Shown here: one piece after another, positions 48,809-62,335 of the stretch
Layout of the letters: every line of letters starts with the position of its first letter
Position numbering within the stretch: the first letter of the stretch is position 1
NCBI GenBank assembly: GCA_947591215.1
Contig: CANQCZ010000002.1
Coordinates: 6,819-70,818 of the forward strand
Direction of reading: 5' to 3'
Origin: an uncultured Bacilli bacterium
GTDB taxonomy: Bacteria > Bacillota_I > Bacilli_A > RFN20 > CAG-449
Length of the DNA stretch: 64,000 nucleotides
Notes under the pieces: generated by a model
The model's input: only the letters and a program-made list of their open reading frames with translations
Told to the model about the DNA's origin: nothing
The model's database searches: none
Translations under genes and position numbers: made by a program

Positions 48809-49117
48809 TTATAAATTATATTTAATATAAATATTAACTACTTCTATAAGTATATTTAAATAATCTCTATCATACTCGTTAAAGTCAAAATTTAAAGCAT
48901 CATATTCAGCCAAATTTGATAGAAAAATTGAGAATTCTTTTATTTCATTTTGAACATCTTCTCTTTTTGCTTTTTTACCTTCTAGAAGCATCGTACACAA
49001 ATCAAAATCAACATGTTCTACATATAATATATTAACAGTAGGATCTTCTTTATACATCGATGGTATTCGCATTTTTTTAAATTTTTTTACAAGTAATTTT
49101 TCATCTTCTGTAAGCAT
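48809..49117 (-). CDS. Hypothetical protein; candidate (orphan) immunity protein
   Basis: 102 aa acidic cytoplasmic protein downstream of the RHS toxin tip; no recognisable motif. Confidence 0.3.
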   Translation of the reverse strand: MLTEDEKLLVKKFKKMRIPSMYKEDPTVNILYVEHVDFDLCTMLLEGKKAKREDVQNEIKEFSIFLSNLAEYDALNFDFNEYDRDYLNILIEVVNIYIKYNL

Positions 49118-49170
49118 TTGTATTACCTCCTATTTTTAATAGTCAAAAAATAGTATAAATTAGACTCCTA

Positions 49171-49365
49171 CTAGTTTCTATTAATTTTTTTCCTTTTCTT
49201 TTTTTCCTTTTCTTCTTTATAACATAATTTTACGATTGGATATATTATTATAATCATTAATGCTGATTCTAACCAGCTATACTTATTAGGTGGTGAAGGA
49301 TCATTATAATATCCGTATATAGTTGAAATTATATATATGATAATTATTTGTATTATTTCAATCAC
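49171..49365 (-). CDS. Small hydrophobic membrane protein; candidate immunity to a membrane-acting toxin
   Basis: 64 aa with two Ile-rich TM segments and a Lys-rich tail; lies in the RHS tip/immunity cluster. Confidence 0.25.
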   Translation of the reverse strand: MIEIIQIIIIYIISTIYGYYNDPSPPNKYSWLESALMIIIIYPIVKLCYKEEKEKKKRKKINRN

Positions 49366-49430
49366 AATTTTTTCCCCATTTTTAAAACCATCTTTTGTAT
49401 AATTGTTATAATTGCTAGTTGAATTATTTC

Positions 49431-49733
49431 TTATAATAAAAAGTCAATTATACTTATAAAATAGACTAAATCATCATATTTTTTAAACAATTCCTCATCA
49501 AATGTTTTGTTTTTTGTGGCTGAGAAATATAAACTGTCTGCTAGATTCTTTAATTCTTTTAGTTTTTCATCACTTAACTCAAAATCAAAGATATATGCAG
49601 GTTCTTTATCAAATCCCATTTTATATCCTGCATAATCAATAGTTGCAGTATCAACTATCCTATCATAATAAGATGGCAACCATTCTTTAACACCTTTTAA
49701 AAAATTTTCAAACAATCTTTTTTCTAATCTCAT
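49431..49733 (-). CDS. Hypothetical protein; candidate immunity protein
   Basis: 100 aa; context only. Confidence 0.3.
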   Translation of the reverse strand: MRLEKRLFENFLKGVKEWLPSYYDRIVDTATIDYAGYKMGFDKEPAYIFDFELSDEKLKELKNLADSLYFSATKNKTFDEELFKKYDDLVYFISIIDFLL

Positions 49734-49903
49734 TTATTAGACCCCCTTAAATAAAAAATGCCATATCCATCTATAATCGCTTGTTAATACTAATTTGTAA
49801 ATACCATTATTAAATTTGCCTTTAATTACAGATGACCCTTTAGCAGTAAACGAATAAAATAATCTACCATTTTCGCCAATGTCTTTGCTCATCTTTCCAT
49901 ATT

Positions 49904-50563
49904 TTATGATATTTTTTGAGTTAAAACAGAGTCAAAATATGGCCTACTATCATTTTTGTTAGAATAATAACTTTCTGGAAATTCTGCACTTCCTATATTC
50001 TTATAGGCTTGTATTCTAGGTGTGTTGTATTTGTACCATGCCCCACAAACAATACTACCAACAGTTGCAATAGTACCAGTAATTGATGCATAAGTATTAT
50101 ATGCGGACGAGTTGCCTCCAAATAATCCATCTTCCATGAAATTATAATCAAAAGCTAAATCTCCAACTTCTGCAACACCATTAATTGTAGTTAGCGCCCC
50201 TGCTCCTATTGTAATACCAGCAACTAATAACATAGGCCATGTAGCAACTCCACTAGCAACGACTAAAGCACCAGCAATAATAGCACCAATACCAGTAACT
50301 AAATATCCTACTCCTTGCCAGAAATAACTCCATTCCCAATCGTGTCCACTAGGATCTGCGTACATTATAGGATTATTATAACAATAACAATATAAATTTA
50401 AGCCATTAATAGATTTAGGGTCTAAATAATCAATTGAATCAGGTGTTAGCCATCTACATAGTTCTGGTGAATAATACCTAGAGTTGCAATAGAAGAGTCC
50501 TGTCTCAAATGATTTATATCGAGTATCCTCAACAAAGATTAACCTATAACAATTTAATTTCAT
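49904..50563 (-). CDS. Orphan RHS C-terminal fragment: end of the RHS core plus a glycine-zipper membrane toxin-like tip
   Basis: The RHS core terminal consensus is readable (RYYSPELCRWLTPDSIDYLDPKSINGLNLYCYCYNNPIMYADPSGH). It is followed by a Gly/Ala/Ile-rich hydrophobic segment (GIGAIIAGALVVASGVATWPMLLVAGITIGAGALTT). The ORF begins inside the core, so there is no N-terminal YD-repeat shell. Confidence 0.65.
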   Translation of the reverse strand: MKLNCYRLIFVEDTRYKSFETGLFYCNSRYYSPELCRWLTPDSIDYLDPKSINGLNLYCYCYNNPIMYADPSGHDWEWSYFWQGVGYLVTGIGAIIAGALVVASGVATWPMLLVAGITIGAGALTTINGVAEVGDLAFDYNFMEDGLFGGNSSAYNTYASITGTIATVGSIVCGAWYKYNTPRIQAYKNIGSAEFPESYYSNKNDSRPYFDSVLTQKIS

Positions 50564-50624
50564 TGTAAAATTAATTATTTAAAATTTTTTTCAAACTTAC
50601 ATTATTTTCTTGTGAAAATATTTA

Positions 50625-50876
50625 TTATTTTTTATTTAATATTTTTTCACATTGTGGACATAATCCATCTTCATTTAATGGTAAAGGCTTAAAATATTTT
50701 TTTATAAAATACACTTCCAATGATCCATCTACAGTTGTGATTTTTTCAGGCATGTTTGGCTTATATCCTTTTTCATGACAACATATACATTCGTTAATCC
50801 ATTTTTTAAATTTTGGAAAAGCATTGATATATTCTTCGCCTTCATTTCCGTTTCTTTTCATTACAATTTTCCCCAT
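50625..50876 (-). CDS. Small zinc-ribbon-like protein (CxxC...CxxC)
   Basis: 83 aa; CICCHEKG and CPQCEK Cys pairs. Confidence 0.3.
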   Translation of the reverse strand: MGKIVMKRNGNEGEEYINAFPKFKKWINECICCHEKGYKPNMPEKITTVDGSLEVYFIKKYFKPLPLNEDGLCPQCEKILNKK

Positions 50877-51129
50877 TTCTCTAAAATTTTTTTTAATAAA
50901 TTAATTAACTTTTTTAAATTATCATGAGTACTATAAGGATATTTATCAATTTCTTTATGCAATCTTTGCCATAAATTTCAATTTTTTATTGTCTAATGGT
51001 CTTATTTTTTTCTTCATTATAAAAATAATTGATTTTATTAGTAACAGCATTATTTGAATTAATCCAATCTTCCTCAAGAATAATATCACCATTAAAATAA
51101 TAATTTACATAAATTATTAGAATTTTCAA

Positions 51130-51400
51130 CAATCTTATATATTGCTATATGATCATCAAATTCATAAATATCATTAATAAAACATGGTTCTACTTTAATT
51201 AATCCTTCATTAGCTAATTCTTTAATTATCTTTTGTATTGTTCTATCACTAACTGCTAGTTTAGATGATAAATAATTAATTTTAATAGAAGTACTACTAT
51301 TATCAATGATATAATTTAGAACTATTTCTTTACGTTCACTAGGCGTAGATTTACGATAATGATAAACTGTTGTTCTTAAGGCTTATGATATACTTCAGGA
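51130..51400 (-). pseudogene. Frameshifted/disrupted remnant of a winged-HTH (DeoR/HTH_11-like) regulator
   Basis: The minus-strand frame reads ...YRKSTPSERKEIVLNYIIDNSSTSIKINYLSSKLAVSDRTIQKIIKELANEGLIKVEP... (classic wHTH) but has no start codon and stops upstream; no ORF of 60 aa or more was called here. Confidence 0.35.
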
Positions 51401-51456
51401 ATTACTATTCCATACTTACGATAGTTTTCGTTTTCTGATGTGTAGTACACACAACT

Positions 51457-53226
51457 CTAATCTTTGTCCACAACATTAAATAAACCATTTTTGCCAATCA
51501 AAACAACATTTTCAGAATTAGGTCTTCTTTTTCTTGAAACTTGTTGAACATATAAAAAGGTCGGCATTTGAAATGCTGTTCCTGATACAATACATTCACC
51601 TGGAGCCAATATAGTAATAAAATCCAATGACGCATCATCCATATATGCAACCGCCTTTCTGATTTTCGAAATGTCAGATGGATTAACTAGTTTATGTATA
51701 AAATAATTGTGTAGTTGAGAAATAATAGTTTGAGATATATCACTTGGTCTTTGACTAGCAATCATTAAAAATAACCCAAATTTTCTTCCTTCTTTTATTA
51801 CCTTTTCAAAAACATCTAAAACAGATTCGTGACTCAAAATATTTTTATTATCTTCATATAGAATATTATGAGCTTCATCTACCACAATGTTTATAATCTG
51901 TTTTATTTCTCCTTCTTCTTTTTTCTCAACCAATCTATTAAATATATTATTTGTTATTATAGATGGTACAATTTCTTTCATGTCTCTATTAACATTTCCA
52001 AGTTGCACTATACAAACGTTTTTGTCATCAAAAATATCCTTAAATTCTTCTGTGAAATCAAAAATTTTGCGGAAGTCATTAATTAATTTTCTAGCTCTAG
52101 CTATTAACGGCATCATAAAATCAAGATTTACGCCATTCTCATTTTCGTGTGCAACCGCAAAATATAACTCAAATAAAAATCTGTCCAAACTATCTTCAGG
52201 AAGAGTTATATCAATATTGTCTAACGCTTTTTCAAATTCACAACTTCCACAATAAAAAATTGTTCCGTTGCTATTTTTATAATGAATTTTAACTTGCTGT
52301 GAATGATAAAAAAATCCATCTAATCCAGTAAAATATTCATTTAGATATACCCTCATAGATTGAAATAAAGATTTTTTTGCATTTGTGATTATCAATTTTA
52401 AATAATTTAAATAATATTTTTTCCCGCGTCTTTCTTCTTCATCTTTTTTCATTTCTTTATAGGCATTTTTAACTACTGGGGCTTGAGTTTTTTGTGAAGC
52501 ATTCATTAGAACTATAAAATCATCTTCGCTTAAAGAATTCAAATTTAAAGGTATTTTCCTCAATGATGACTTTTTGCTTGTAGATAAAGGATAAATCGTT
52601 TTTTCAGTTTCTTCACAAATTGCTGATTTACCATACTCATTGTTTAAATCTAAAATCAAATATTTACCATTTTTGGTTTTATATTTATTCAACAAATTAG
52701 TATACTCCTGCAAAATTTTGGTTAAAGTATTTGATTTACCACTACCTGTATTTCCAAAAACACCAATATGAGACGGTATTAACTTATTAATTTCGATATT
52801 TATACCTTTATTTTCATCAAACAAATCATTTCCAATAAATATTGTGTTAGACGAACCTGAATTATAAATGTTTTCATAGTCATCTTTATCTAACAATTCT
52901 ATATTTGCAGACACAATTGGCAATATTCTAAGACCTTGTATGAATTTATTTTTATCCAAATAACCCTTCACTTGCAAATCCAAGAAATGAGATTGAACAT
53001 TACTACCAATCTCTTCGCTATATTCACCAACCACTTGGCAAATAATTGTATCTATTCCAATCTTGGTTTTGACAAATCCATTTATTTTAGGAGCAGATTC
53101 CCTCTTTCCATTTTCAACCAAATATGGAGGTAATAAATTAAAAAGCTTTGCTCTAACCTGAAGTCCTTTAACTTCAACTATTCTTCCAACGATTTTTCCC
53201 ATAACTCTTTCACCATATTTGAACAT
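51457..53226 (-). CDS. herA: HerA-family (DUF87, FtsK/HerA-type) ATPase, partner of SIR2 in a SIR2-HerA defense pair
   Basis: N-terminal HAS-barrel-like start (GKIVGRIVEVKGLQV), Walker A (GNTGSGKSNT), Walker B (IVVDEAHN), ASQRPSDI motif; overlaps the upstream SIR2 gene. Confidence 0.75.
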   Translation of the reverse strand: MFKYGERVMGKIVGRIVEVKGLQVRAKLFNLLPPYLVENGKRESAPKINGFVKTKIGIDTIICQVVGEYSEEIGSNVQSHFLDLQVKGYLDKNKFIQGLRILPIVSANIELLDKDDYENIYNSGSSNTIFIGNDLFDENKGINIEINKLIPSHIGVFGNTGSGKSNTLTKILQEYTNLLNKYKTKNGKYLILDLNNEYGKSAICEETEKTIYPLSTSKKSSLRKIPLNLNSLSEDDFIVLMNASQKTQAPVVKNAYKEMKKDEEERRGKKYYLNYLKLIITNAKKSLFQSMRVYLNEYFTGLDGFFYHSQQVKIHYKNSNGTIFYCGSCEFEKALDNIDITLPEDSLDRFLFELYFAVAHENENGVNLDFMMPLIARARKLINDFRKIFDFTEEFKDIFDDKNVCIVQLGNVNRDMKEIVPSIITNNIFNRLVEKKEEGEIKQIINIVVDEAHNILYEDNKNILSHESVLDVFEKVIKEGRKFGLFLMIASQRPSDISQTIISQLHNYFIHKLVNPSDISKIRKAVAYMDDASLDFITILAPGECIVSGTAFQMPTFLYVQQVSRKRRPNSENVVLIGKNGLFNVVDKD

Positions 53227-54053
53227 TCCAATGTAGTATCAATGCCTTCTTCGTTTTCTATAATTGTAATATTATCTACCATATTTTCGGGAATATAATC
53301 TTCTTTTTTAAATTTATACCAATAAATTGTTAATCCTGATGAAATACAATCTTTTAAAATTTTGTTAATATGTTCATCATTCCCTGAATATCCAATAACA
53401 ATAAGTACAGAATTTTCTCTAGACAATTTTTCTTTCATTTTAAATAATATCTCAAATCTATTTGCCATTATCATTGAGTCATACTTATTTATTCCTGGTA
53501 AAATAGGATTATTAATATCTCCATGCAATTTAGAAACTAAATACGTTGGCACAAATTTATTAAATAAGAAGTTATATCCAACCATATAAAAGAACTTATC
53601 GTGGTTTTTTATATTAGAAGATGAAATTGAATTACTTAAATATCCAAGATTTTCTAATACCTTTTCAACAATCATATCATAATTAAGTGTGTATATATTC
53701 ACTTGCTTAGTAGTTTTTGTTCTATTTTCAGATTCCTCTACTAACTTATTTATAATAAAAAAAAGTGATTCAATATTCTTAATTGATTTGTGATTGAAAT
53801 CTATTGTTTTAGAAAAATCATTAAACTCTTCCACAAACAAATCAAAAACTTGTTTTTTATCCTTGTCTGTTTTTAATTTATCTAGACCTTCTTCGAAATT
53901 TTGGAAAGGTTCTTTTAATAAATTCTTTAATAATTCTAATGATTTACTAAATTTATTAATTTGTGGAAAAGCAGCCCCATTAACCCCCGCACCAAATAAA
54001 AAATTAATGTGTGATGATGATAAGATTTTAGAATCAAATTTTACTGTATTCAT
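53178..54053 (-). CDS. SIR2-like (SIR2_2/DUF4020-type) NADase domain protein
   Basis: FLFGAGVNGAAFP (GAGxS-like Rossmann), YTLNYDMIVEKVLE (TxNYD-like), KLHGDINNP and VIGYSGNDEHI motifs are characteristic of defense-associated SIR2 domains; GAGGTG RBS. Confidence 0.65.
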   Translation of the reverse strand: MNTVKFDSKILSSSHINFLFGAGVNGAAFPQINKFSKSLELLKNLLKEPFQNFEEGLDKLKTDKDKKQVFDLFVEEFNDFSKTIDFNHKSIKNIESLFFIINKLVEESENRTKTTKQVNIYTLNYDMIVEKVLENLGYLSNSISSSNIKNHDKFFYMVGYNFLFNKFVPTYLVSKLHGDINNPILPGINKYDSMIMANRFEILFKMKEKLSRENSVLIVIGYSGNDEHINKILKDCISSGLTIYWYKFKKEDYIPENMVDNITIIENEEGIDTTLECSNMVKELWEKSLEE

Positions 54054-54074
54054 ACTATTACACCTCGAACTTCT

Positions 54075-56036
54075 TTAATAATTTGTAATCAACACTTCTC
54101 TAGTTACAGTTTCTTTATCCTTTATTTGGTAATTAGAATTGCTATAACTTGCTTTTATATAAATCAAATTAAAATGATTTTTATCAATCCATTGCTTTAA
54201 TTTTTCATGAACTTTACCTTTATGTTCGATGACATTAGACAACGCAAAAGGTATCCCTTCTTCATTTAATTTTTCTAAGAATTTTAATAACTTTCTTTCT
54301 TCTTTAATTGTCCATCCATTATTTTCGTTATATGAAGCTATTCCTAAATAATATGGTGGATCACAATAGAAAAACGGATTGTCTAAATTAGAATAATCTA
54401 TTTTATTAAAATCTTTATTTTGAAATAAAATAGTTTTATTTTTAATTTTTAGTACGAAATCTTTAATATTTTTTCTAGATGATGAATTGAAATCCCTCTT
54501 TCCTACAGGCATATTAAATTCACCGTTAGAGTTAAATCTAATTTGATTGTTAAATGAGAAAATTATTAATGTTAACAAAAGAAAATCTTTTTCTTCGCTT
54601 TCTCTTTTTAAAGAATTATATTCTTCTCTTAATTGAGTATACTTTTCCTTATTGTAACTGCCTACACCAGAATCACTTTCACAATTGTAATATTCATATC
54701 CATTTTCATAAGTGTTAGACAATTCATACTTTGCAATGTTTTTTTCGATTTTTTTAATAATTACCGAATAATCGTACTTGTAAAATAATTTTATTAATCT
54801 AGTAATCTCTTTTTGTTTATCGTTATAAACAATTATATCACATTCTACATTAGCACCAACATTAAATCCACCACCAAATAGGTCAATAAATGAATTGAAA
54901 TGTGTTGGAAATTTTTCTAATAATTGAGGCAATAATTTATATTTTCCACCAGTATAGTTTAAAGGTGATTTAGCATAACCATTTATTTTTTCTTCACTTT
55001 CATATTCTGTAGTTTGTTTACCTACAAAACATAGAAATAATCTTTCCTTATGATCTTCTATATCTGTTTTACCAGTATTAAATTGATTGAATTCTTTTTC
55101 AAACACTTTAACTTTGCCTTTTGCTAATAATATTCTCATGATGTCATCATCACTAATTTTAGCTTGTGATCTGCCAGCACCTTTAGTACCCATATTATTA
55201 TATGAAACTAAAATATATCTAGCATTGATATTATTAATTAAATCTTCAAATTGTTTAGGTGCTGTATGTGTACAATATTTACTTTTCAAATTACTTCTAT
55301 CCATTTTCTTAGCAACACCAAATACTTCTGGTTTTTCCCAAGAAGCAACATTTTCAAGCAAATGATAAGCATCACAATATTGTCGCGAATTATATGGTGG
55401 ATCAATATACACTAAGTCTGCAACAACTCTTCTAACTAATGAATTTGCATCTTCTCTGTAAATAATATTGTTTAAATTAACTTCTCTTGCTGGTAAGTCT
55501 AGTTCTTCTAAAACAAGGTCTTTATTTAAATCACCATTCATTCTATAAGCATCATAATGCCCTACAGTGTTTGCAATTCTATCCATTGCATATAAGAGAG
55601 ATGTTATTAAAATTGCTTTTTCTCTTTCATTTAATTCTCCATTATTAAATTGGTTTTCAATATTTTCTCTAATATATCCTATTTTTTTACAATTAAATTC
55701 ACTAAAAAAAGTATTAGAGAAATTATTTGAAAAATAATTGTCTTCTAATATTTCCAACTCATTATATCTTGTAATTAAACCACTAATTTTGCCTTCATCA
55801 ATCTCTTGACTACCAAACCACGCAATATAAGAAAGGTAATTAGACATTAAAATATCGTTAACCATTATTGTTGTATATTGATTATTAAAATTCCAAGCAA
55901 CATTACCTGTTCCACCAAACAAATCTAAAATGATATTTATATTTTCACATTCCTTATTTACTACCTCTGTAATAAATGATAATAACTTAGCTTTACTTCC
56001 TAAATATCTTCTGTTTTTTATATTGAATTTACTCAT
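54075..56036 (-). CDS. Tandem two-domain Dam-family (D12 class) N6-adenine DNA methyltransferase, Type IIS-style
   Basis: Two complete MTase modules in one polypeptide: module 1 RYLGSKAKLL / DLFGGTGNV / DPPY; module 2 NYTGGKYKLLPQL / DLFGGGFNVG / DPPY. Confidence 0.8.
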   Translation of the reverse strand: MSKFNIKNRRYLGSKAKLLSFITEVVNKECENINIILDLFGGTGNVAWNFNNQYTTIMVNDILMSNYLSYIAWFGSQEIDEGKISGLITRYNELEILEDNYFSNNFSNTFFSEFNCKKIGYIRENIENQFNNGELNEREKAILITSLLYAMDRIANTVGHYDAYRMNGDLNKDLVLEELDLPAREVNLNNIIYREDANSLVRRVVADLVYIDPPYNSRQYCDAYHLLENVASWEKPEVFGVAKKMDRSNLKSKYCTHTAPKQFEDLINNINARYILVSYNNMGTKGAGRSQAKISDDDIMRILLAKGKVKVFEKEFNQFNTGKTDIEDHKERLFLCFVGKQTTEYESEEKINGYAKSPLNYTGGKYKLLPQLLEKFPTHFNSFIDLFGGGFNVGANVECDIIVYNDKQKEITRLIKLFYKYDYSVIIKKIEKNIAKYELSNTYENGYEYYNCESDSGVGSYNKEKYTQLREEYNSLKRESEEKDFLLLTLIIFSFNNQIRFNSNGEFNMPVGKRDFNSSSRKNIKDFVLKIKNKTILFQNKDFNKIDYSNLDNPFFYCDPPYYLGIASYNENNGWTIKEERKLLKFLEKLNEEGIPFALSNVIEHKGKVHEKLKQWIDKNHFNLIYIKASYSNSNYQIKDKETVTREVLITNY

Positions 56037-56083
56037 TTAATTTTTCATTTCCTTTTTAGGCATCTCATGCATCTAATTATAAC

Positions 56084-56114
56084 AAAAAAAGCCTTATATT
56101 ACAACAATAAGGCT
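56084..56114 (-). terminator. Rho-independent terminator downstream of the putative restriction endonuclease gene
   Basis: GCCTTAT-loop-ATAAGGC hairpin with a T7 run on the minus strand. Confidence 0.45.
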
Positions 56115-56216
56115 AATTTAATTTTGGCCTCACTTTTGTTTTGAAACCCCATGATTTTGAAGAGTTTTTTTAAAACCCCACGCAACCCCACGCGTTTTCG
56201 AGGAGGACCTTAATTT

Positions 56217-58187
56217 TTATATTTTTTGTACTAGTGTATTGTTATACCAATCTAATCCAGTCTGAAGAGAATTATAGGCTTCATCAAAAATTGTATATAA
56301 TTCATCATAATTCTTTTTCTTTTCCACTATATCTTTAATTAAATCTACATCTACAGGAATTATTTTCAATCCTATATCTTCACCTCTGACATTAATTTGA
56401 TAATTTTTCATAACCCTAAACGTTTTTAGTGTTCGTTCTTCTAATTGTGAAGCTACAAATAATACGTAATCATATTTGTTGTTAGTTTTATTAACATGAT
56501 TTTCTAAATGTCTAGAAACTGGTTCCCATTCCATGTGTCGTTGCCCAGTAGATTCACTTAAAGTTGCTTCTAATAACATATCATGCTTAGGATATGAAAT
56601 TAATTTAGGATAGTTAAATACTAGATCAGCGTCTCCACCTGGAGCATGTGTTTTAGGCATGAAGTTAGCATCTAAAGTTAGATTCATATACTCTTCCAAT
56701 CTACCTATTCTTCCACTAACTTGATACCATATAATACCTAGAATGTATTCAAATATGGTAGATGGAGTAGCGTCATCAGTTACTAATTCTTTAATTCTAT
56801 TATCATTTCTAGTTTTAAAACAATCTAGTAATTCAAGAAGCACATCTTTTCCTAATTTTTCATCTATCATTTTAATAAAAGTATTATTTTTAATATCTTT
56901 TAAATATTCCTCTAATTTTCCAGGAACAATCGTTCCTCCATATTTAGTATTAATCGTATTAGTAATATCTGCTTCAGTTTTATTACATTCAGGATATATT
57001 TTATCTATTTCCAGATAATTAGTAAAATATTGTTCATAATTATCATTAGAAATCATAGGCTTAAACAACATTTTTTCTACAATATCATTGAAATAATACT
57101 CTGCAATTTCAACTAATTTAAATCTACCATTTTCATATTTAATAATATCTGTTAAATTGAAATAACGTTTATTTAAGTCATAATAGTCTTCTAATGTAGA
57201 TTTCCACTTCATTAAATGCCATGTTTTAAAGAAATAATCCTTAAACTCTTCTTCAGTGCTACATGAACAAATATTTAATTCATAAAAATATAATAAATAT
57301 TCTTGATTAAACTTTGTGTTTTTATAAAGTTTAAACATAGACTTCCAAGTAGAAGCTTGATTTGCGTTTATTTTCGAAAATGCATCTTTTAATTGTTTTA
57401 ACAACAATATTCTTTCATCATCATTTAAACTCACTCTATCTATAACTAAAGTTTTTAAAACATTATATACTTTAGCAAACGGTCTGTCGTACTTTCCACT
57501 TTTTCTATTCATACCTATCTGTTCCATTACAGATTCATCTATTACATCACTTGTCATCAATAAGTTATATGCTTCTTGATAATTATCCATAGACATCATT
57601 TTTTTAATAAGTAAATTATCAACAGAAATTTTTCCTCTTGCACTTAAAATATCCGCTGTTGTTTTTAATACATCGTTATTATTCATACAAGTAGGATATA
57701 AATAAGTAAATTCTTCTCTTGTCAAATATTCAAGTTTTGATAGCATATACAACAACACTACAAAAGGCCTTATTTGAATTGTATTATCATTAATTTGATA
57801 TTTTAAAAATTGCAAAAGATATACATAACTGTCCTTTGGAATTTCTAGTATGTTATCAGAACTAAAATCACCAGATAGCGATATTTTATTGATCAAATCA
57901 CCTATTGGTGTAATGTGCCTAGATTTTCTATAAACCAATCCGATATCAGCCAATCCAGATGTTTTTTCTCTTGCATCTTTATCTTTAATCGCATCATAAT
58001 CTTCAATAAAATCTTTAGAAACCAATAAATCAAAATATTTTGCTTGTAGTGTTTTATTCCATTCAATATCAGGATTTGAAGTAAATAATTCACTTAAATA
58101 TCTTAATTGACACTCGTTTTTATAGTTTAATTGATCAACTCTAAAACTTGTTGTTCCAATACTCCAACAATAGCTTTTAAATCCCAT
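56217..58187 (-). CDS. Putative Type IIS-like restriction endonuclease (partner of the tandem Dam MTase)
   Basis: 656 aa protein immediately upstream of the fused double MTase, a typical Type IIS organisation. The C-terminal region has acidic residues (GGDADLVFNYPK...EATLSES) that could form a nuclease site; the family assignment is uncertain. Confidence 0.4.
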   Translation of the reverse strand: MGFKSYCWSIGTTSFRVDQLNYKNECQLRYLSELFTSNPDIEWNKTLQAKYFDLLVSKDFIEDYDAIKDKDAREKTSGLADIGLVYRKSRHITPIGDLINKISLSGDFSSDNILEIPKDSYVYLLQFLKYQINDNTIQIRPFVVLLYMLSKLEYLTREEFTYLYPTCMNNNDVLKTTADILSARGKISVDNLLIKKMMSMDNYQEAYNLLMTSDVIDESVMEQIGMNRKSGKYDRPFAKVYNVLKTLVIDRVSLNDDERILLLKQLKDAFSKINANQASTWKSMFKLYKNTKFNQEYLLYFYELNICSCSTEEEFKDYFFKTWHLMKWKSTLEDYYDLNKRYFNLTDIIKYENGRFKLVEIAEYYFNDIVEKMLFKPMISNDNYEQYFTNYLEIDKIYPECNKTEADITNTINTKYGGTIVPGKLEEYLKDIKNNTFIKMIDEKLGKDVLLELLDCFKTRNDNRIKELVTDDATPSTIFEYILGIIWYQVSGRIGRLEEYMNLTLDANFMPKTHAPGGDADLVFNYPKLISYPKHDMLLEATLSESTGQRHMEWEPVSRHLENHVNKTNNKYDYVLFVASQLEERTLKTFRVMKNYQINVRGEDIGLKIIPVDVDLIKDIVEKKKNYDELYTIFDEAYNSLQTGLDWYNNTLVQKI

Positions 58188-58689
58188 ATTATCTTCACCA
58201 CTACTTTCTACTTTTTTTGATAAATGATACTAAAATTATATTAAAGTTTTCTTAAAAAATATATAAATTAACATAAATATATTTCTAATTAAATCTTATT
58301 TTATAAAAAAGAAAAGGCAAGCATAATCTATCGAATAAACTTACATTATTTTGTTTGTAAAAGTAATTTGCTATTATTTTGTGTTCTAAATTTTATAAGA
58401 TATATTTTTTCTATTCTTTTGTTATCTAAATTTCTTAACAATTACTTCTATTAACCATTAAACACCAAATACTAGTCCTAATAATACAAACATTGTAACA
58501 ATTCCAATGATTGCATGTTTAAATGTCATTCCTTTAGGATTGTTTCTAAACGCAGCAGAAATCGACATTAACAAACAATGAAAACAATATTTAATGAACT
58601 TCCATATCGTTTATACCTTCTAAAAATATTGATAACGAAAACAGCAATGCCCCCCTAGAAAGCAAATAACTCCAGTTTTTACGGAAGGA

Positions 58690-59182
58690 ATCGCCTATAA
58701 GGCAGAGCCAATATTTCCCATTGTTAACCAATGATTTGGGGTTCTTGGTGCAATTTTAGATAGTAATTGTGGTCCAAATTTCCTGCCACTGCCCAACCAC
58801 CTGCTCCACCTGTTAAACCTGCAACTAATCCATATAATGTTCCAAACAATGTTGAAATCGTTAATTAGATCAATTAAATTCACCAGCATCAATCAATTGC
58901 TCTACAACGTTTATTCCTTCAGATATAAGACCTTCAGTTAACATAGCAGTCCCTACAGCGGTGGCTCCCGCTCCGGCAACGCCACAAGTTAATACAATAG
59001 CAAACCCAGCAACCACTCATTCATTGTGCCCATTTAGGCATATGAACATCAGAATCGATATACAAAATAGGATTATTATAACAATATAGATTTAAGCCAT
59101 TAATAGATTTAAAATCTAAATATTCAATTGAATCAGGTGGTAACCATCTACAAAGTTCTAGTGAATAGTAACATGAGGATAC
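58690..59182 (-). pseudogene. Degraded RHS core terminus plus Gly-rich toxin tip (stop/frameshift-interrupted continuation of the upstream RHS fragment)
   Basis: After the stop at 59183, other frames read ...YSLELCRWLPPDSIEYLDFKSINGLNLYCYNNPILYIDSD... and ...GVAGAGATAVGTAMLTEGLISEGINVVEQLIDAGEF. This is paralogous to the 49904-50563 tip but broken by stops. Confidence 0.5.
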
Positions 59183-61086
59183 TCAATATAGTACTGTCTC
59201 CACATCAAAATAGTATCCACGATATCTAAATGGATTAAGAGTTGCAATTCCATCTACATCATTAGTAATTATGTGATTACCATAAGCATCATATGCATAT
59301 CCCCCTACTTCATTTCCTTCATCATCGTATATAGCAATAATATCACCTTGTATATTTCTTAAGTAGATATATTCTTTGCTATTACTACCATCATTATAGT
59401 TGAAACCAATCAATTTGTTAAAAGCATATTTGTATGTCAATATCCCATTTTTGGTAATTGTCCTTAGTATTCTTGTTCCATCGACGATGAATGAAGTTTC
59501 AACATCATTAACAATCTTATTTCTTCTTATACCATTTGCATCATAGGAATAATAAGCCTCCACTTCTTCACTCATGAAACTTAATAAATTTCCATTACTT
59601 TCCCATTCTAACAAATTATCCATATAAGTAATTGGACGTCCCATTTTATCATATTCAAACTGTTTGCCATTAAAGAATAGTAATTGGTCATTCCATCCAT
59701 CACATTCATAAGTATATTCATCTACTTTTGGTGAATACAATTTATCTTCTAGAGTATATTCATAAGTTTTCTTTAAAAGAATATTTCCTGCACTATCGTA
59801 CTTATAGGTAATGGTCTTATTTAATTTTGGATTATCCTCTCTTACAAGACGATTTAATTTATCGTATTGATATCTTGTTAAACTATCATCAGCATCGATT
59901 TCAATGATATTACCACTTTCATCATAATTATATTTGCTTGTCTCAGTCATATAAATTTTAATAGGTATTAGTTTGTTCTCTTCAGATATAGACTCTTTTC
60001 TTACAATGACTTTGGTTCGATCCTCAGCAACTAAATCCAAACTATTTTCATCTTGTTGCAAATAACTATATTCGTGGCACAACTCTATTTTCTGTAAAGA
60101 ATAGCTACTACTTTTATCTATTTCAATATTTTGATGCTTTACTCTATTTAGAACATCATAATCATAATTAATTGTAAATAGTCCATTAATATCTAATGTC
60201 GTTATTCTATTTTCTTCATCATATTGATACTCAGTTTGTAAAACATCACCATCTTGGATGCTGATTTCTTCTTTACTTAAAAGATTCTTACTATCATACG
60301 TAAATGCGCGGTAGAAATGTGCATCATCATTTACAGTCTTGGTAAAATCTGTAACATTATTATAATCATCATATGATGTTTCTAAAACTTCTGTAAAAAC
60401 TTCCTGAGTATCTAGATTTGTCTTATTAGAAATGACTTTTGTTAAGTTTTCATCTTCATAGTCATATATGCTTTCACCCTGATGTATATCACTATTAAAA
60501 CTTAATAATTTTAATCTATTCTCATCATCAGTTATATAACTAGTTTTATAGTCAGCTTCAAATTCGGTTTCGACAAAACTACCATGCTTGATTTTTAGAT
60601 CATTATTTTTATAATTATCATCGTAAATATTACGTAAATAATTACTACCATTTAAATTATTTTGAACTTTTCTTCCCTTTCCATCATAAATGTAATCAAC
60701 TTTCATTCCATGATGTGCTAATGAGGTTAGTAAACCATAGTTATAAGTAAACGATTTGGAATTATTGATTCCTTCAGCACTTGAAGTAATACTAAGTAGA
60801 TCCCCTGTGTTAAAATCATAGGTATAACATGTAGTTTCTCCATTTACTCCTTTAATTTTACTTTGAATATTTGTGTTTGGTAAATAAGTTACTTCTTCGG
60901 TAGGATAATTACCTTTTCTATCTTTGATTTGTCCTTTAATAGATAACACTCTTCCTTGTTCATCGTATTCAGCTTTTCCCACTTTCATCAAAGATGCATC
61001 TTTTTTATTATAGGTTCTCCTTTCAAAACATTGTCCTTTATCATTATAGTAGTATTCTTCAACGTTTCCTTTACTATCTTCTACTT
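59183..61086 (-). pseudogene. 5'-truncated RHS/YD-repeat protein fragment
   Basis: Multiple YD repeats (YDEQGRVL, YDGKGRKV, YDKLNRLV, YDKMGRPI) ending in NPFRYRGYYFDVETVLY (start of the RHS core). The open frame continues upstream to a stop at about 61086 with no start or N-terminal domain; the first in-frame ATG is at 60988. Confidence 0.6.
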
Positions 61087-61446
61087 AAAATATTAAAGAG
61101 TTTCACATAGTAGTCCTTTAATAAATCTTGCCATATTTCCCAACCCCTATATTTGCTATATAAAAAATGTAATAATAAGAACCCACCCTTAAAAAAATGT
61201 AAAATTTATTAAATTGTAATAATTATTGTCAAAATTTGCAACTTCATATTATTTTTAGACTAATAGTACGATATTATAAATTAATTTGAATTCAATCCTT
61301 ATAACTAAAATGACTTTTTGTTCTTGAAATTGCTTCTTTCAATTTTGACTTTAATCTGATTAATTTTATTATTAATTATAATTCTTAGTAGTTCTTTATA
61401 AAAATCAATTCATCAATATGATTTCATTAAAAATCTTATTCATCAA

Positions 61447-61515
61447 TATCACTTATATAAATAGATGAATAAAACGATAATGTAAGAACTATCTAGTTAC
61501 TAACTTTTTCTTTTT
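61447..61515. repeat. Right copy of the ~69 bp direct repeat; overlaps the 3' end of the adjacent membrane-protein gene
   Basis: TATCACTTATATAAATAGATGAATAAAACGATAATGTAAGAACTATCTAGTTACTAACTTTTTCTTTTT; contains the last 7 codons and stop (61493-61495) of the 61493-62335 gene. Confidence 0.8.
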
Positions 61516-62335
61516 GCTTATTTTCTTTATTGTTCTTTTTATTATTTTTTTGTTGTAACTTAATTTGTCGTTTTTCTTCTTTCTGCTCGCGTTTGATTTC
61601 TTCTTCTATTTCTTCAAACATTTTTCGATAAGTTTCATTCTCATCGATTAATACTTTTCGTGAGAAAACCTTATATGCTTCTTCACCGCTGATTTGGATG
61701 ATAAGTAAACATATTTTTTTTATAATTATCGAAATAGAATTATCTACAATTGCTTTTTTTAACCAATGAAAAGGATTTAATAAATTAAGTGCCGACATCA
61801 TAGTTTTGACTTTTTCAGGAATCTTATGTTCGTTTATGGTTTTAACCGGTTTAGAATTTTTAACTTCTATTAACGAAATTACTGTCGATAATTTCATCTT
61901 TCTAAGAATTGAAAGCATGCGATTGGAAAATATATTTTCAACTCGATCTGTTATATATTTACTTAATAGCACAAGTTCATCAAAAGTCAATTCTGCCATT
62001 GGGTGTTTGGACTTTGGATGATACCATTTGGCGATTTGAAGAACTTCTTCTTTGACACATGAAGTAAAAGCTGTATCTTTCAAATTCGGATCTTGAATCC
62101 GATATTTATATTCATGCTTGTAATGTTCAATAAGTTTAATGACATCTTCATCTTTGATATCCACAAAAGTATTATCGATGATATATCGGGATTTTCTTAA
62201 CGACAGCAAAGCGCTATAAAGGTATAATAAAAAAGTGATTACAATCCCTAAAGCAATGCCAGTTAAAAGGGTAATTACTAATGAAATATTTAATTCAAAT
62301 TCAATTCCGAAAATTTCAAATAAAAAATAGTTCAT
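61493..62335 (-). CDS. Membrane protein of unknown function with a Lys/Glu-rich C-terminal tail
   Basis: Two N-terminal TM helices, a C-terminal low-complexity KEQKEEKRQIKLQQKNNKK tail, AGGAG RBS. Confidence 0.4.
   Translation of the reverse strand: MNYFLFEIFGIEFELNISLVITLLTGIALGIVITFLLYLYSALLSLRKSRYIIDNTFVDIKDEDVIKLIEHYKHEYKYRIQDPNLKDTAFTSCVKEEVLQIAKWYHPKSKHPMAELTFDELVLLSKYITDRVENIFSNRMLSILRKMKLSTVISLIEVKNSKPVKTINEHKIPEKVKTMMSALNLLNPFHWLKKAIVDNSISIIIKKICLLIIQISGEEAYKVFSRKVLIDENETYRKMFEEIEEEIKREQKEEKRQIKLQQKNNKKNNKENKQKEKVSN

What the first reader, a model, noticed from the sequence alone, without database searches (positions are those of the whole stretch)
51457..54053. SIR2-HerA anti-phage defense pair
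A 291 aa protein with SIR2_2-type motifs (GAGxS-like FLFGAGVNG, TxNYD-like YTLNYDMIVE, KLHGD, GYSGND) sits immediately upstream of a 589 aa HerA/FtsK-type ATPase (HAS-barrel start, Walker A/B, ASQRPSD), and the two genes overlap. This is the gene order and domain content of the SIR2-HerA NAD+-depleting abortive-infection system. The SIR2 protein here is shorter (291 aa) than many described versions. The pair is also bounded by a disrupted wHTH regulator remnant and a small zinc-ribbon gene. So this may be a compact variant with a lost or alternative regulator.
Basis: partly seen in the sequence, partly recalled or inferred. Interest (0 to 1): 0.6.

Follow-up and report, generated by a model that had tools for sequence, protein, structure and literature searches.

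The report
Compact SIR2-HerA phage-defence gene pair
These two overlapping genes are an intact, ordinary member of the known SIR2-HerA anti-phage system, which is thought to kill infected cells by destroying NAD+, and they sit next to a restriction-modification system in a defence island of an uncultured gut Bacilli bacterium.

Summary
On the minus strand, a 291-aa SIR2_2 protein (54053..53178) overlaps a 589-aa HerA ATPase (53226..51457; likely start 53202). Profile, structural and residue-level evidence all place the pair in the SIR2-HerA defence family.

- **SIR2:** Pfam SIR2_2 and PADLOC SIR2 hits. The only PDB sequence matches and the top 26 Foldseek matches are SIR2 subunits of solved SIR2-HerA complexes.
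- **HerA:** full-length PADLOC hit (3.5e-112).
- **Catalytic residues:** SIR2 N124, D126 and H177 and HerA K164 align with experimentally defined residues.
- **Conservation:** the pairing holds in all 28 genome-scan loci with a full-length SIR2. No third gene is conserved. dN/dS is 0.08–0.14.

The 291-aa size is normal for a large clade of 284–300 aa proteins in gut Bacillota and other phyla, so it is not a local truncation. The wHTH pseudogene is real but is local context, not a lost system regulator.

Verdict: a new member of a known kind, from a subclade with no solved structure among its PDB matches. Interest is low.

The parts
53178..54053 (-). SIR2 gene (291 aa), the predicted NADase effector
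   Evidence: Pfam SIR2_2 4.5e-10, 40.2 bits against a cutoff of 24.5. PADLOC SIR2 PDLC04089 1.7e-15. A family profile hits only the SIR2 chains of the three solved SIR2-HerA complexes. The AF2 model has pLDDT 87, and its top 26 Foldseek PDB hits are SIR2 chains of SIR2-HerA complexes.
53985..53993 (-). G21-A22-G23, the NAD-binding glycine motif of the Rossmann fold
   Evidence: G21 and G23 are invariant in 40 of 40 family members. The motif aligns with GSG in the plasmid SIR2 and in SaSir2.
53676..53690 (-). T122-L-N124-Y-D126, the catalytic Asn/Asp motif
   Evidence: N124, Y125 and D126 are invariant. They align with PsSIR2 N163/D165 (residues named in PMC11472057) and with SaSir2 N226 (PMC11514289).
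53523..53525 (-). H177, the catalytic His in KLHGD
   Evidence: Invariant in the family. H177 aligns with H181 of a Lactiplantibacillus plasmid SIR2, and that residue aligns with SaSir2 H287 and PsSIR2 H212.
51457..53226 (-). HerA gene (589 aa from the first ATG; probable start at 53202 gives 581 aa), a hexameric FtsK/HerA-type ATPase
   Evidence: PADLOC HerA PDLC04097 3.5e-112 covering residues 11-576. Pfam DUF87 3.8e-21 and HerA_C. PDB hits are the HerA subunits of HerA-DUF4297 and SIR2-HerA complexes.
52732..52755 (-). HerA Walker A, GNTGSGKS (158-165)
   Evidence: K164 aligns without gaps to PsHerA K173. The K173A mutant is catalytically inactive (PMC11472057).
51868..51885 (-). HerA Walker B, VVDEAH (448-453)
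   Evidence: Motif position. It aligns with the (v)leEAH motif of solved HerA chains.
51742..51759 (-). HerA ASQRPS motif (490-495)
   Evidence: Aligns with the conserved vSQRPSe motif of solved HerA chains.
53178..53226 (-). SIR2/HerA coding overlap, indicating translational coupling
   Evidence: Relatives overlap by 25 nt, and overlap or abutment is seen in all 28 paired genome loci.
54075..58187 (-). Context, not part of the system: an AlwI-family type IIS R-M system. The REase is at 58187..56217 and the fused double D12 MTase at 56036..54075.
   Evidence: RE_AlwI 3.2e-64. MethyltransfD12 5.8e-56 in two stretches. PADLOC MTase_II 5.7e-206 and REase_II 7e-35.
51090..51450 (-). Context: a wHTH (HTH_11-type) pseudogene with a GTG start, a 1-nt frameshift near 51376 and a replaced 3' half
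   Evidence: The intact 172-aa ortholog in L008 hits HTH_11 at 3.4e-6.

Best explanation
This is a functional two-gene SIR2-HerA abortive-infection defence system from a compact-SIR2 subclade. By analogy with characterised members, the HerA ATPase forms a hexamer through its N-terminal barrel and RecA-like core. That hexamer docks a ring of SIR2 subunits, each built from a Rossmann large domain and a helical small domain. Complex formation and a phage-derived cue relieve SIR2 autoinhibition. SIR2 then hydrolyses NAD+ using N124, D126 and H177, which depletes the cell of NAD+ and stops phage replication at the cost of the infected cell. HerA ATP hydrolysis (K164; D450/E451) is required.

Shown here: family membership, intact catalytic residues, obligate pairing of the two genes, purifying selection, and a defence-island context. 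Inferred from homologs: complex formation, NADase activity, the trigger, and the abortive-infection outcome. The pair probably shares a transcript with the upstream methyltransferase, because the gap is only 21 nt and no terminator was found. It lies in a horizontally mobile, low-GC island.
For: Profiles: SIR2_2 above Pfam's cutoff, 26 PADLOC SIR2 models, and PADLOC HerA 3.5e-112 over the full length.

Structure: the only PDB matches to the SIR2 family profile are the SIR2 chains of the Paenibacillus, S. aureus and E. coli complexes. The top 26 Foldseek hits are the same complexes, with E 1e-11 to 7e-9 and query TM 0.57-0.67. The model keeps the helical small domain (helices 36-107) and the C-terminal helix.

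Residues: N124/D126 align with PsSIR2 N163/D165 and SaSir2 N226. H177 aligns with PsSIR2 H212 and SaSir2 H287 through a bridging sequence. HerA K164 aligns with PsHerA K173 (residues named). All are invariant in 40 family members.

Pairing: HerA lies directly downstream in all 28 genome-scan loci with a full-length SIR2 and in the other loci fetched. SIR2 and HerA identities fall in parallel, from 92/91% to 36/41%. No other gene is conserved.

Selection: dN/dS is 0.135 for SIR2 and 0.080 for HerA against L008.

Context: the neighbours are R-M systems, Abi_2, Shedu, PLD, PbeA, PDC-S31, integrases and T4SS.

Literature: SIR2-HerA causes NAD+ depletion and abortive infection, and mutating catalytic residues of SIR2 NADase or HerA ATPase abolishes protection from phage T7.
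Against: No member of this compact clade has a solved structure among the PDB matches found here, and I found no experimental test of one in the papers I read. Identity to the solved SIR2 subunits is only 15-19%. Scores against the NCBIfam equivalog models for the characterised systems are far below their cutoffs: 37 against 500 for SIR2, and 147 against 850 for HerA. The compact SIR2 lacks about 19 residues after the catalytic His and has a shorter small domain and C-terminus. The HerA also ends where the C-terminal arm of PsHerA begins. Assembly stoichiometry and gating could therefore differ. The His equivalence rests on a transitive alignment, not a direct one. The HerA's best PDB hit by a small margin is the HerA of a HerA-DUF4297 system. 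Promoter and terminator scans were uninformative.
Confidence: 0.85

Rival explanations
1. The pair is one half of an integrated four-gene unit (AlwI-type REase, double MTase, SIR2, HerA). In this view restriction and NAD+ depletion are functionally coupled, for example if SIR2-HerA senses DNA ends made by restriction, and their adjacency is not mere co-location.
For: All four genes are co-oriented, with only 21 nt between MTase and SIR2. The whole block from 58364 to 51475 is shared at 91% identity with L008. A more distant relative, L016 (60/68% identity), also has an AlwI-family REase and two D12 MTases upstream of the pair. Type III E. coli Sir2-HerA ATPase is reported to be activated by DNA ends (abstract).
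Against: Other relatives carry the same pair next to unrelated R-M types (Eco57I-like, HindIII) or next to no R-M at all. Only 3 of the 149 neighbour ORFs scanned, from 21 loci, match RE_AlwI. The gene order also differs in L016. This pattern fits general defence-island clustering better than obligate coupling.
Confidence: 0.08
2. The compact SIR2 uses different chemistry or a different target from NAD+ hydrolysis, for example ADP-ribosylation or nuclease activity. In that case the system works like SIR2-HerA in its architecture only.
For: Identity to the solved NADases is low. About 19 residues next to the active-site His are missing. The AF2 model has low confidence for residues 181-200. Nuclease activities have been reported in some SIR2-HerA complexes.
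Against: The GAG, N-x-D and H catalytic set is invariant and aligns with that of proven NADases. All close structural neighbours are NAD+-degrading defence SIR2 domains: SIR2-HerA, DSR2, ThsA and SPARSA.
Confidence: 0.05
3. The pair has a housekeeping role. It could be a HerA-type DNA repair or translocation system, or a sirtuin protein deacetylase, and not an immune system.
For: HerA was first described as a DNA repair helicase. There are weak NCBIfam hits to repair HerA and to CedD.
Against: There is no NurA or Mre11/Rad50 partner. The SIR2 protein matches SIR2_2 and no canonical sirtuin model appeared at E<=0.01. The pair has a patchy, horizontally transferred distribution across phyla and occurs inside conjugative elements and defence islands. 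It lies in a low-GC island.
Confidence: 0.02
4. The system is an inactive relic in a decaying island.
For: The adjacent wHTH gene is a pseudogene. The neighbouring RHS tip contains stop codons.
Against: Both ORFs are full length, all catalytic residues are intact, and dN/dS is 0.08-0.14 against L008.
Confidence: 0.03

Closest known systems
SIR2-HerA of Paenibacillus sp. 453MF (PDB 8W9L / 8WLD; PMC11472057)
   Same: Both are two-gene operons with SIR2 upstream of HerA. The SIR2 is bilobed, with a Rossmann large domain and a helical small domain. The catalytic N/D/H and the HerA Walker A lysine align. It is the best sequence-profile match for SIR2 (2e-10).
   Different: PsSIR2 is 381 aa against 291 aa here. 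The window protein lacks about 19 residues after the catalytic His and has a shorter C-terminal region. PsHerA is 696 aa with a C-terminal arm (aa 576-696), whereas the window HerA aligns up to PsHerA residue 576 and then ends. Structural-alignment identity is about 16-19%.
SaSir2-HerA of Staphylococcus aureus (PDB 8YHX / 8YHO; PMC11514289)
   Same: It is the top Foldseek hit (1.3e-11). Its catalytic N226 and H287 map to N124 and H177. Its HerA has a similar size (562 aa) and no long C-terminal arm.
   Different: SaSir2 is 428 aa, with about 180 residues between the GSG motif and the catalytic Asn, against about 100 here. Identity is about 17%.
E. coli Sir2-HerA / Nezha (PDB 8J4U, 8SU9) and E. 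coli types I-III (PMC13434337)
   Same: The architecture and predicted fold are the same. The divergence from this pair is similar to the 13-22% identity reported among the E. coli subtypes.
   Different: EcSIR2 is 415 aa and has a unique C-terminal extension.
HerA-DUF4297 system (PDB 9C1M, 8XAU)
   Same: The HerA ATPase is equally similar, and 9c1m is the best PDB hit at 5e-30.
   Different: The effector partner here is a SIR2 domain, not the DUF4297 (Cap4-like) nuclease.

Membership tests
SIR2-HerA defence system | The effector has a SIR2_2-type (defence sirtuin) domain | tested here: met
   Pfam PF13289 at 40.2 bits against a cutoff of 24.5. PADLOC SIR2 models down to 1.7e-15. Foldseek top hits are SIR2 chains of SIR2-HerA complexes.
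SIR2-HerA defence system | The catalytic Asn/Asp and His of the NADase pocket are present | tested here: met
   N124/D126 align with PsSIR2 N163/D165 and SaSir2 N226. H177 aligns with PsSIR2 H212 and SaSir2 H287 via a bridging plasmid SIR2. All are invariant in 40 of 40 family members.
SIR2-HerA defence system | The partner is a HerA/FtsK-type ATPase with an N-terminal barrel region and intact Walker A and B motifs | tested here: met
   PADLOC HerA 3.5e-112 over residues 11-576. Pfam DUF87 and HerA_C. The N-terminal residues 12-221 align with PsHerA 13-224, and K164 aligns with K173.
SIR2-HerA defence system | The two genes are adjacent, co-oriented and co-inherited | tested here: met
   They overlap by 25-49 nt in the window. 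HerA lies directly downstream in all 28 genome-scan loci with a full-length SIR2, and the identities of the two proteins co-vary.
SIR2-HerA defence system | Located among other defence or mobile genes | tested here: met
   An AlwI-type R-M system is adjacent. Neighbours across 21 loci include R-M, Abi_2, Shedu, PbeA, PDC-S31, integrase and T4SS genes.
SIR2-HerA defence system | Scores above NCBIfam equivalog cutoffs (NF042942 SIR2_antiphage; NF042943/NF042944 HerA_antiphage) | tested here: not met
   37.3 bits against 500 for SIR2, and 146.7 against 850 and 134.3 against 800 for HerA. The pair is not in the same equivalog subfamily as the characterised systems. These narrow models define subfamilies, not the system as a whole.
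SIR2-HerA defence system | Forms a supramolecular complex of a SIR2 12- or 14-mer with a HerA hexamer, in which HerA activates the NADase | not testable with these tools
   Only single-chain structure prediction is available. The property is known for the Ps, Sa and Ec systems.
SIR2-HerA defence system | Depletes NAD+ and causes abortive infection on phage challenge | not testable with these tools
   This needs experiments. It has been shown for homologous systems.
HerA-DUF4297 defence system | A DUF4297 (Cap4-like nuclease) partner is encoded next to HerA | tested here: not met
   The adjacent gene is SIR2_2, and no DUF4297 hit was found.
Canonical sirtuin deacetylases (Pfam SIR2, PF02146) | Matches the canonical SIR2 family model | tested here: not met
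   Only SIR2_2 and a sub-threshold FapA hit were reported at E<=0.01.
DSR / Thoeris ThsA SIR2 effectors | The SIR2 domain is fused to a large C-terminal sensor (DSR) or to a SLOG domain (ThsA) | tested here: not met
   The protein is 291 aa and consists of the SIR2 domain only. DSR2 and ThsA rank below the SIR2-HerA chains in the fold search.

The most novel reading that the evidence does not exclude
The compact clade may be a mechanistically distinct SIR2-HerA subtype. Its features are a roughly 290-aa SIR2 without the post-His segment, a shorter small domain and C-terminus, and a HerA without a C-terminal arm. It has no solved structure among its PDB matches. The subtype might have a different SIR2:HerA stoichiometry or gating. 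It might also work with accessory genes that are swapped in and out, such as the translationally coupled 457-aa R-x4-H protein found immediately after HerA in the 91%-identical relative L008, or with the recurrent AlwI-type R-M neighbour.
Probability: 0.12. Interest if true: 0.45.

Novelty: new member of a known kind. Interest (0 to 1): 0.2.

Why it matters
The main value is correct annotation. NCBI-style pipelines label these genes only 'SIR2 family protein' and 'ATP-binding protein'. Here they can be called a SIR2-HerA NAD+-depletion system with its catalytic residues identified.

The compact clade is widespread in gut Bacillota, Mycoplasmatota, Coriobacteriia and other groups. Because it is a minimal natural version of the system, it could be a convenient subject for structural and biochemical work on how HerA gates a SIR2 NADase.

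It does not open a new question. Its subtype-level divergence is comparable to what has already been reported among E. coli Sir2-HerA types.

Tried and rejected
- **Direct alignment of the His region.** HMMER alignments of this region to solved SIR2 chains failed: single sequence, family profile and a 91-aa sub-query all skipped it. A 342-aa Lactiplantibacillus plasmid SIR2 used as a bridge solved this.
- **Promoter and terminator scan.** It found 61 promoter-like sites against 63 expected and 1 terminator against 0.8 expected, so it gives no information on operon structure.
- **Phage and plasmid searches.** There was no phage match, and only 26%-identical plasmid relatives, so there is no evidence that this exact clade is phage- or plasmid-borne. 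One relative does sit in a conjugative element.
- **Search for a conserved third gene or regulator.** Nothing is shared by more than 3 of 21 loci. I therefore rejected the 'lost regulator' idea.
- **Truncation as the cause of compactness.** I rejected this because the homologs listed are nearly all 281-318 aa.
- **HerA-DUF4297, HerA-NurA repair and canonical sirtuin readings.** I rejected these on partner identity and domain hits.
- **Pfam, PADLOC and NCBIfam searches of the 83-aa zinc-ribbon ORF, and Pfam and PADLOC searches of the L008 457-aa protein.** Both gave nothing.
- **Placing the pair in the E. coli type I-III scheme.** I could not do this because the paper's main text gives no accessions.
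Full report
**Observation.** All quoted motifs are present. In SIR2 they are FLFGAGVNG, YTLNYDMIVE, KLHGD and GYSGND. In HerA they are Walker A GNTGSGKS (158-165), Walker B VVDEAH (448-453) and ASQRPSD (490-496). The ORFs overlap by 49 nt. The second in-frame ATG of HerA (53202) has a GGTGA Shine-Dalgarno 9 nt upstream. It also corresponds to the start called in relatives, where the overlap is 25 nt, so it is the likelier start. Either way the genes overlap.

**Family assignment of SIR2.** The 291-aa protein passes Pfam SIR2_2 at 40.2 bits against a cutoff of 24.5. No canonical sirtuin model appeared at E<=0.01. It matches 26 PADLOC SIR2 and Aga_SIR2 models, the best at 1.7e-15. As a single sequence its only SIR2 matches in the PDB are the SIR2 subunits of the three solved SIR2-HerA complexes, and as a 40-sequence family profile those are its only matches of any kind: Paenibacillus 8w9l (2e-10), S. 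aureus 8yhx and E. coli 8j4u.

An AlphaFold2 model built from the family alignment is confident, with mean pLDDT 87.3 and pTM 0.87. Its top 26 Foldseek hits in the PDB are SIR2 chains from those same complexes, with E 1e-11 to 7e-9 and query TM 0.57-0.67. DSR2, KomBC, ThsA and SPARSA rank below them. The model keeps a helical small domain (helices 36-107, between strands 1 and 2) and a long C-terminal helix. These are the elements that autoinhibit PsSIR2.

**Catalytic residues.**
- PsSIR2 uses N163, D165 and H212 (PMC11472057). SaSir2 uses N226 and H287 (PMC11514289).
- The window's T-L-N124-Y-D126 aligns directly with PsSIR2 TTN163YD165 and with SaSir2 TTN226YD (counted back from the printed coordinates).
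- The His region did not align directly, so I used a bridging sequence: a 342-aa SIR2 from a Lactiplantibacillus plantarum plasmid, which is itself followed by an overlapping 615-aa ATPase.
- Window H177 (SKLHG) aligns with bridge H181 (IKPHG). Bridge H181 aligns with SaSir2 H287 (YKIHGS) and PsSIR2 H212 (WKLHGS).
- G21, G23, N124, Y125, D126, H177 and G178 are invariant in 40 diverse family members.

**Family assignment of HerA.** The 589-aa protein matches PADLOC HerA PDLC04097 over its full length (residues 11-576, 3.5e-112), plus ten more HerA models at E<=1.5e-20. It also matches Pfam DUF87 (3.8e-21) and HerA_C. In the PDB it hits the HerA subunits of HerA-DUF4297 systems (9c1m, 8xau) and of the SIR2-HerA systems (8wiv, 8yho, 8j4u_M), all at 1e-22 to 5e-30. 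K164 aligns without gaps to PsHerA K173, and the K173A mutant is catalytically inactive. The alignment to PsHerA runs to its residue 576, where the PsHerA-specific C-terminal arm begins. The window protein ends 17 residues later and so lacks that arm.

**Is 'compact' special?** No. A search of 5.8 billion proteins returned 363 homologs. The 120 listed are 48-92% identical and almost all are 281-318 aa. Where they carry a source name, it is 'SIR2 family protein' or 'hypothetical protein'. A scan of GTDB species genomes found the family in the following groups:
- uncultured Bacilli, where the closest is fecal_MAG_454 at 92% identity
- Erysipelotrichales, including Solobacterium
- Mycoplasmatota (Liberiplasma, Anaeroplasma)
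- Lachnospiraceae, Christensenellaceae and other Clostridia
- Muribaculaceae
- Lentisphaerae
- Collinsella and Atopobium
- Varibaculum

Relative to classical forms, about 19 residues after the catalytic His are missing (gaps). The GAG-to-Asn segment is about 100 residues, against about 180 in SaSir2. The C-terminus is also shorter. These are clade features, not a local truncation.

**Pairing and selection.** In all 28 genome-scan loci with a full-length SIR2 match, and in every other fetched locus, a HerA gene follows immediately, either overlapping or abutting. The only two exceptions (L034, L037) contain SIR2 fragments. SIR2 and HerA identities to the window fall together, from 92/91% down to 36/41%, which indicates co-inheritance. 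Clustering 150 flanking ORFs from 21 non-redundant loci found no gene shared by more than three loci, so the system is a self-contained two-gene module. Against L008, dN/dS is 0.135 for SIR2 and 0.080 for HerA, so the genes are being maintained.

**Context.** Twenty-one nucleotides upstream of SIR2 lies a 653-aa fusion of two D12-class adenine methyltransferases. Upstream of that is a 656-aa AlwI-family endonuclease.

The block from 58364 to 51475 (REase, MTase, SIR2, HerA) is 91% identical to L008. L008 then carries a clean 1,393-bp insertion. It encodes a 457-aa protein whose start overlaps the HerA stop codon (ATGA). This protein has no Pfam or PADLOC match but has a C-terminal R-x4-H motif. 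An intact 172-aa HTH_11-type wHTH gene follows it in L008.

In the window that wHTH gene begins 6 nt after the HerA stop, with GTG in place of ATG. It is frameshifted by one base near 51376, and its 3' half is replaced after 51169. The 'disrupted wHTH remnant' is therefore real. However, it occurs only in this lineage, so there is no basis for calling it a lost regulator of the system.

Elsewhere the same pair sits beside an Eco57I-like R-M system (L001). In Erysipelothrix rhusiopathiae it sits beside a HindIII R-M inside a conjugative element with MobL, TraG and T4SS genes (L004). Across 149 neighbour ORFs the recurrent families are R-M components, Abi_2, Shedu, PLD, SNF2, PbeA, PDC-S31, integrases and T4SS. 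This is a typical defence-island and mobile-element neighbourhood.

In the window the island is low in GC, at 0.24-0.29 from about 49 to 62 kb against 0.32-0.39 in the flanks. It is bracketed by RHS pieces that share an 84%-identical core-end repeat.

**Mechanism.** The following steps are inferred from characterised homologs. HerA hexamers recruit a SIR2 ring. Binding, together with a phage cue, opens the autoinhibited NAD+ pocket. NAD+ is then hydrolysed to ADPR and nicotinamide. The infected cell arrests, and HerA ATPase activity is required throughout. What is shown here is membership, intact catalytic sets in both proteins, obligate pairing, purifying selection and defence context. What is inferred is the complex itself, NADase activity, the trigger and the abortive-infection outcome.

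**Comparison and novelty.** The pair works like SIR2-HerA and passes every sequence-testable defining feature of the system. It falls far below the NCBIfam equivalog cutoffs for the Paenibacillus and E. coli type proteins. It is only 15-19% identical to the solved SIR2 subunits. That divergence is similar to the 13-22% reported among E. coli Nezha and types I-III, which were classed as distinct subtypes.

It is therefore best described as a new member of a known kind, belonging to a compact subclade that is populous but has no solved structure among its PDB matches. I found no experimental test of this clade in the papers I read. A specialist would not be surprised by it.

**Score.** Interest is 0.2. 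The most novel reading that the evidence does not exclude is that this minimal clade assembles or is gated differently, possibly with swappable accessory genes. I give that a probability of about 0.12.

Noticed in passing
L008:8597-9970 (+); the corresponding junction in the window is between 51475 and 51449: The 91%-identical relative has an extra 457-aa gene inserted exactly between HerA and the wHTH gene. Its start overlaps the HerA stop codon (ATGA) and it ends 1 nt before the wHTH ATG. It has no Pfam or PADLOC hit but carries a C-terminal R-x4-H (VRNHNAHG) HEPN-like motif. It could be an accessory gene or an independent defence gene, and it is absent from the window as a clean indel.
   Followed up: partly
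window 51090-51450 (-): A wHTH (HTH_11-type) pseudogene with a GTG in place of the ATG start, a 1-nt frameshift near 51376, and a 3' half that diverges from the intact 172-aa L008 ortholog after 51169.
   Followed up: yes
window 54075-58187 (-): An AlwI-family type IIS R-M system: a 656-aa REase and a 653-aa fusion of two D12 adenine MTases. An AlwI-family REase with two separate D12 MTases and a PLD/DpnI_C protein also lies upstream of the compact SIR2-HerA pair in the more distant relative L016 (60/68% identity).
   Followed up: partly
window 59183-60991 (-), 58950-59180 (-), 49904-50563 (-): The defence block is bracketed by RHS pieces. These are a 602-aa RHS-repeat ORF, a degenerate C-terminal tip with in-frame stops just after it, and a second intact 'orphan' tip ORF of 219 aa downstream. 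The two core-end regions (59170..59061 and 50476..50361) are 84% identical. A second short repeat (58394..58337 and 50645..50593, 76% identical) lies near the block edges. This suggests the block was inserted or recombined within an RHS orphan-toxin array.
   Followed up: partly
window ~49000-62000: A low-GC island (0.24-0.29 against 0.32-0.39 in the flanks). It covers the RHS fragments, the R-M system, SIR2-HerA and several small unannotated ORFs (100, 102, 64 and 51 aa) that may be RHS immunity genes. No integrase gene showed up among the ORFs I examined in this region.
   Followed up: no
window 50625-50876 (-): An 83-aa CxxC...CxxC zinc-ribbon-like ORF with no Pfam, PADLOC or NCBIfam match. 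Among the loci fetched it occurs only in near-identical contigs (L005, L006). It sits just upstream of the orphan RHS tip, so it is probably unrelated to SIR2-HerA.
   Followed up: partly
window 51457-53226 compared with L008:6828-8600: HerA has about twice the synonymous divergence (dS 0.62) of its three neighbours in the same block (0.27-0.35). The most variable stretch by eye is the middle helical region, roughly residues 290-345. This hints at recombination or diversifying exchange within HerA.
   Followed up: no
L004 (Erysipelothrix rhusiopathiae JAQTCE010000002.1): The compact SIR2-HerA pair and a HindIII R-M system are carried as cargo inside a conjugative element with MobL relaxase, Toprim primase, TraG/T4SS coupling protein and a VirB4-like ATPase. 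This shows one route of horizontal spread.
   Followed up: no
L034:3187-3420 (Anaeroplasma MAG) and L037:2884-2964 (Oscillospiraceae MAG): These loci contain SIR2 N-terminal fragments (76 and 27 residues matched) with no HerA detected nearby. They are likely remnants of decayed systems.
   Followed up: no
L038 (Lactiplantibacillus plantarum plasmid NZ_CP113427.1, 46766-47794 and 44932-46779): A mobilizable plasmid carries another SIR2-HerA subtype: a 342-aa 'SIR2 family protein' overlapping a 615-aa 'ATP-binding protein', next to an FRG-domain gene and an IS5 element. It is intermediate in sequence between the compact clade and the solved systems. The same SIR2 protein match occurs on two other L. 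plantarum plasmids and two Pediococcus pentosaceus plasmids.
   Followed up: partly
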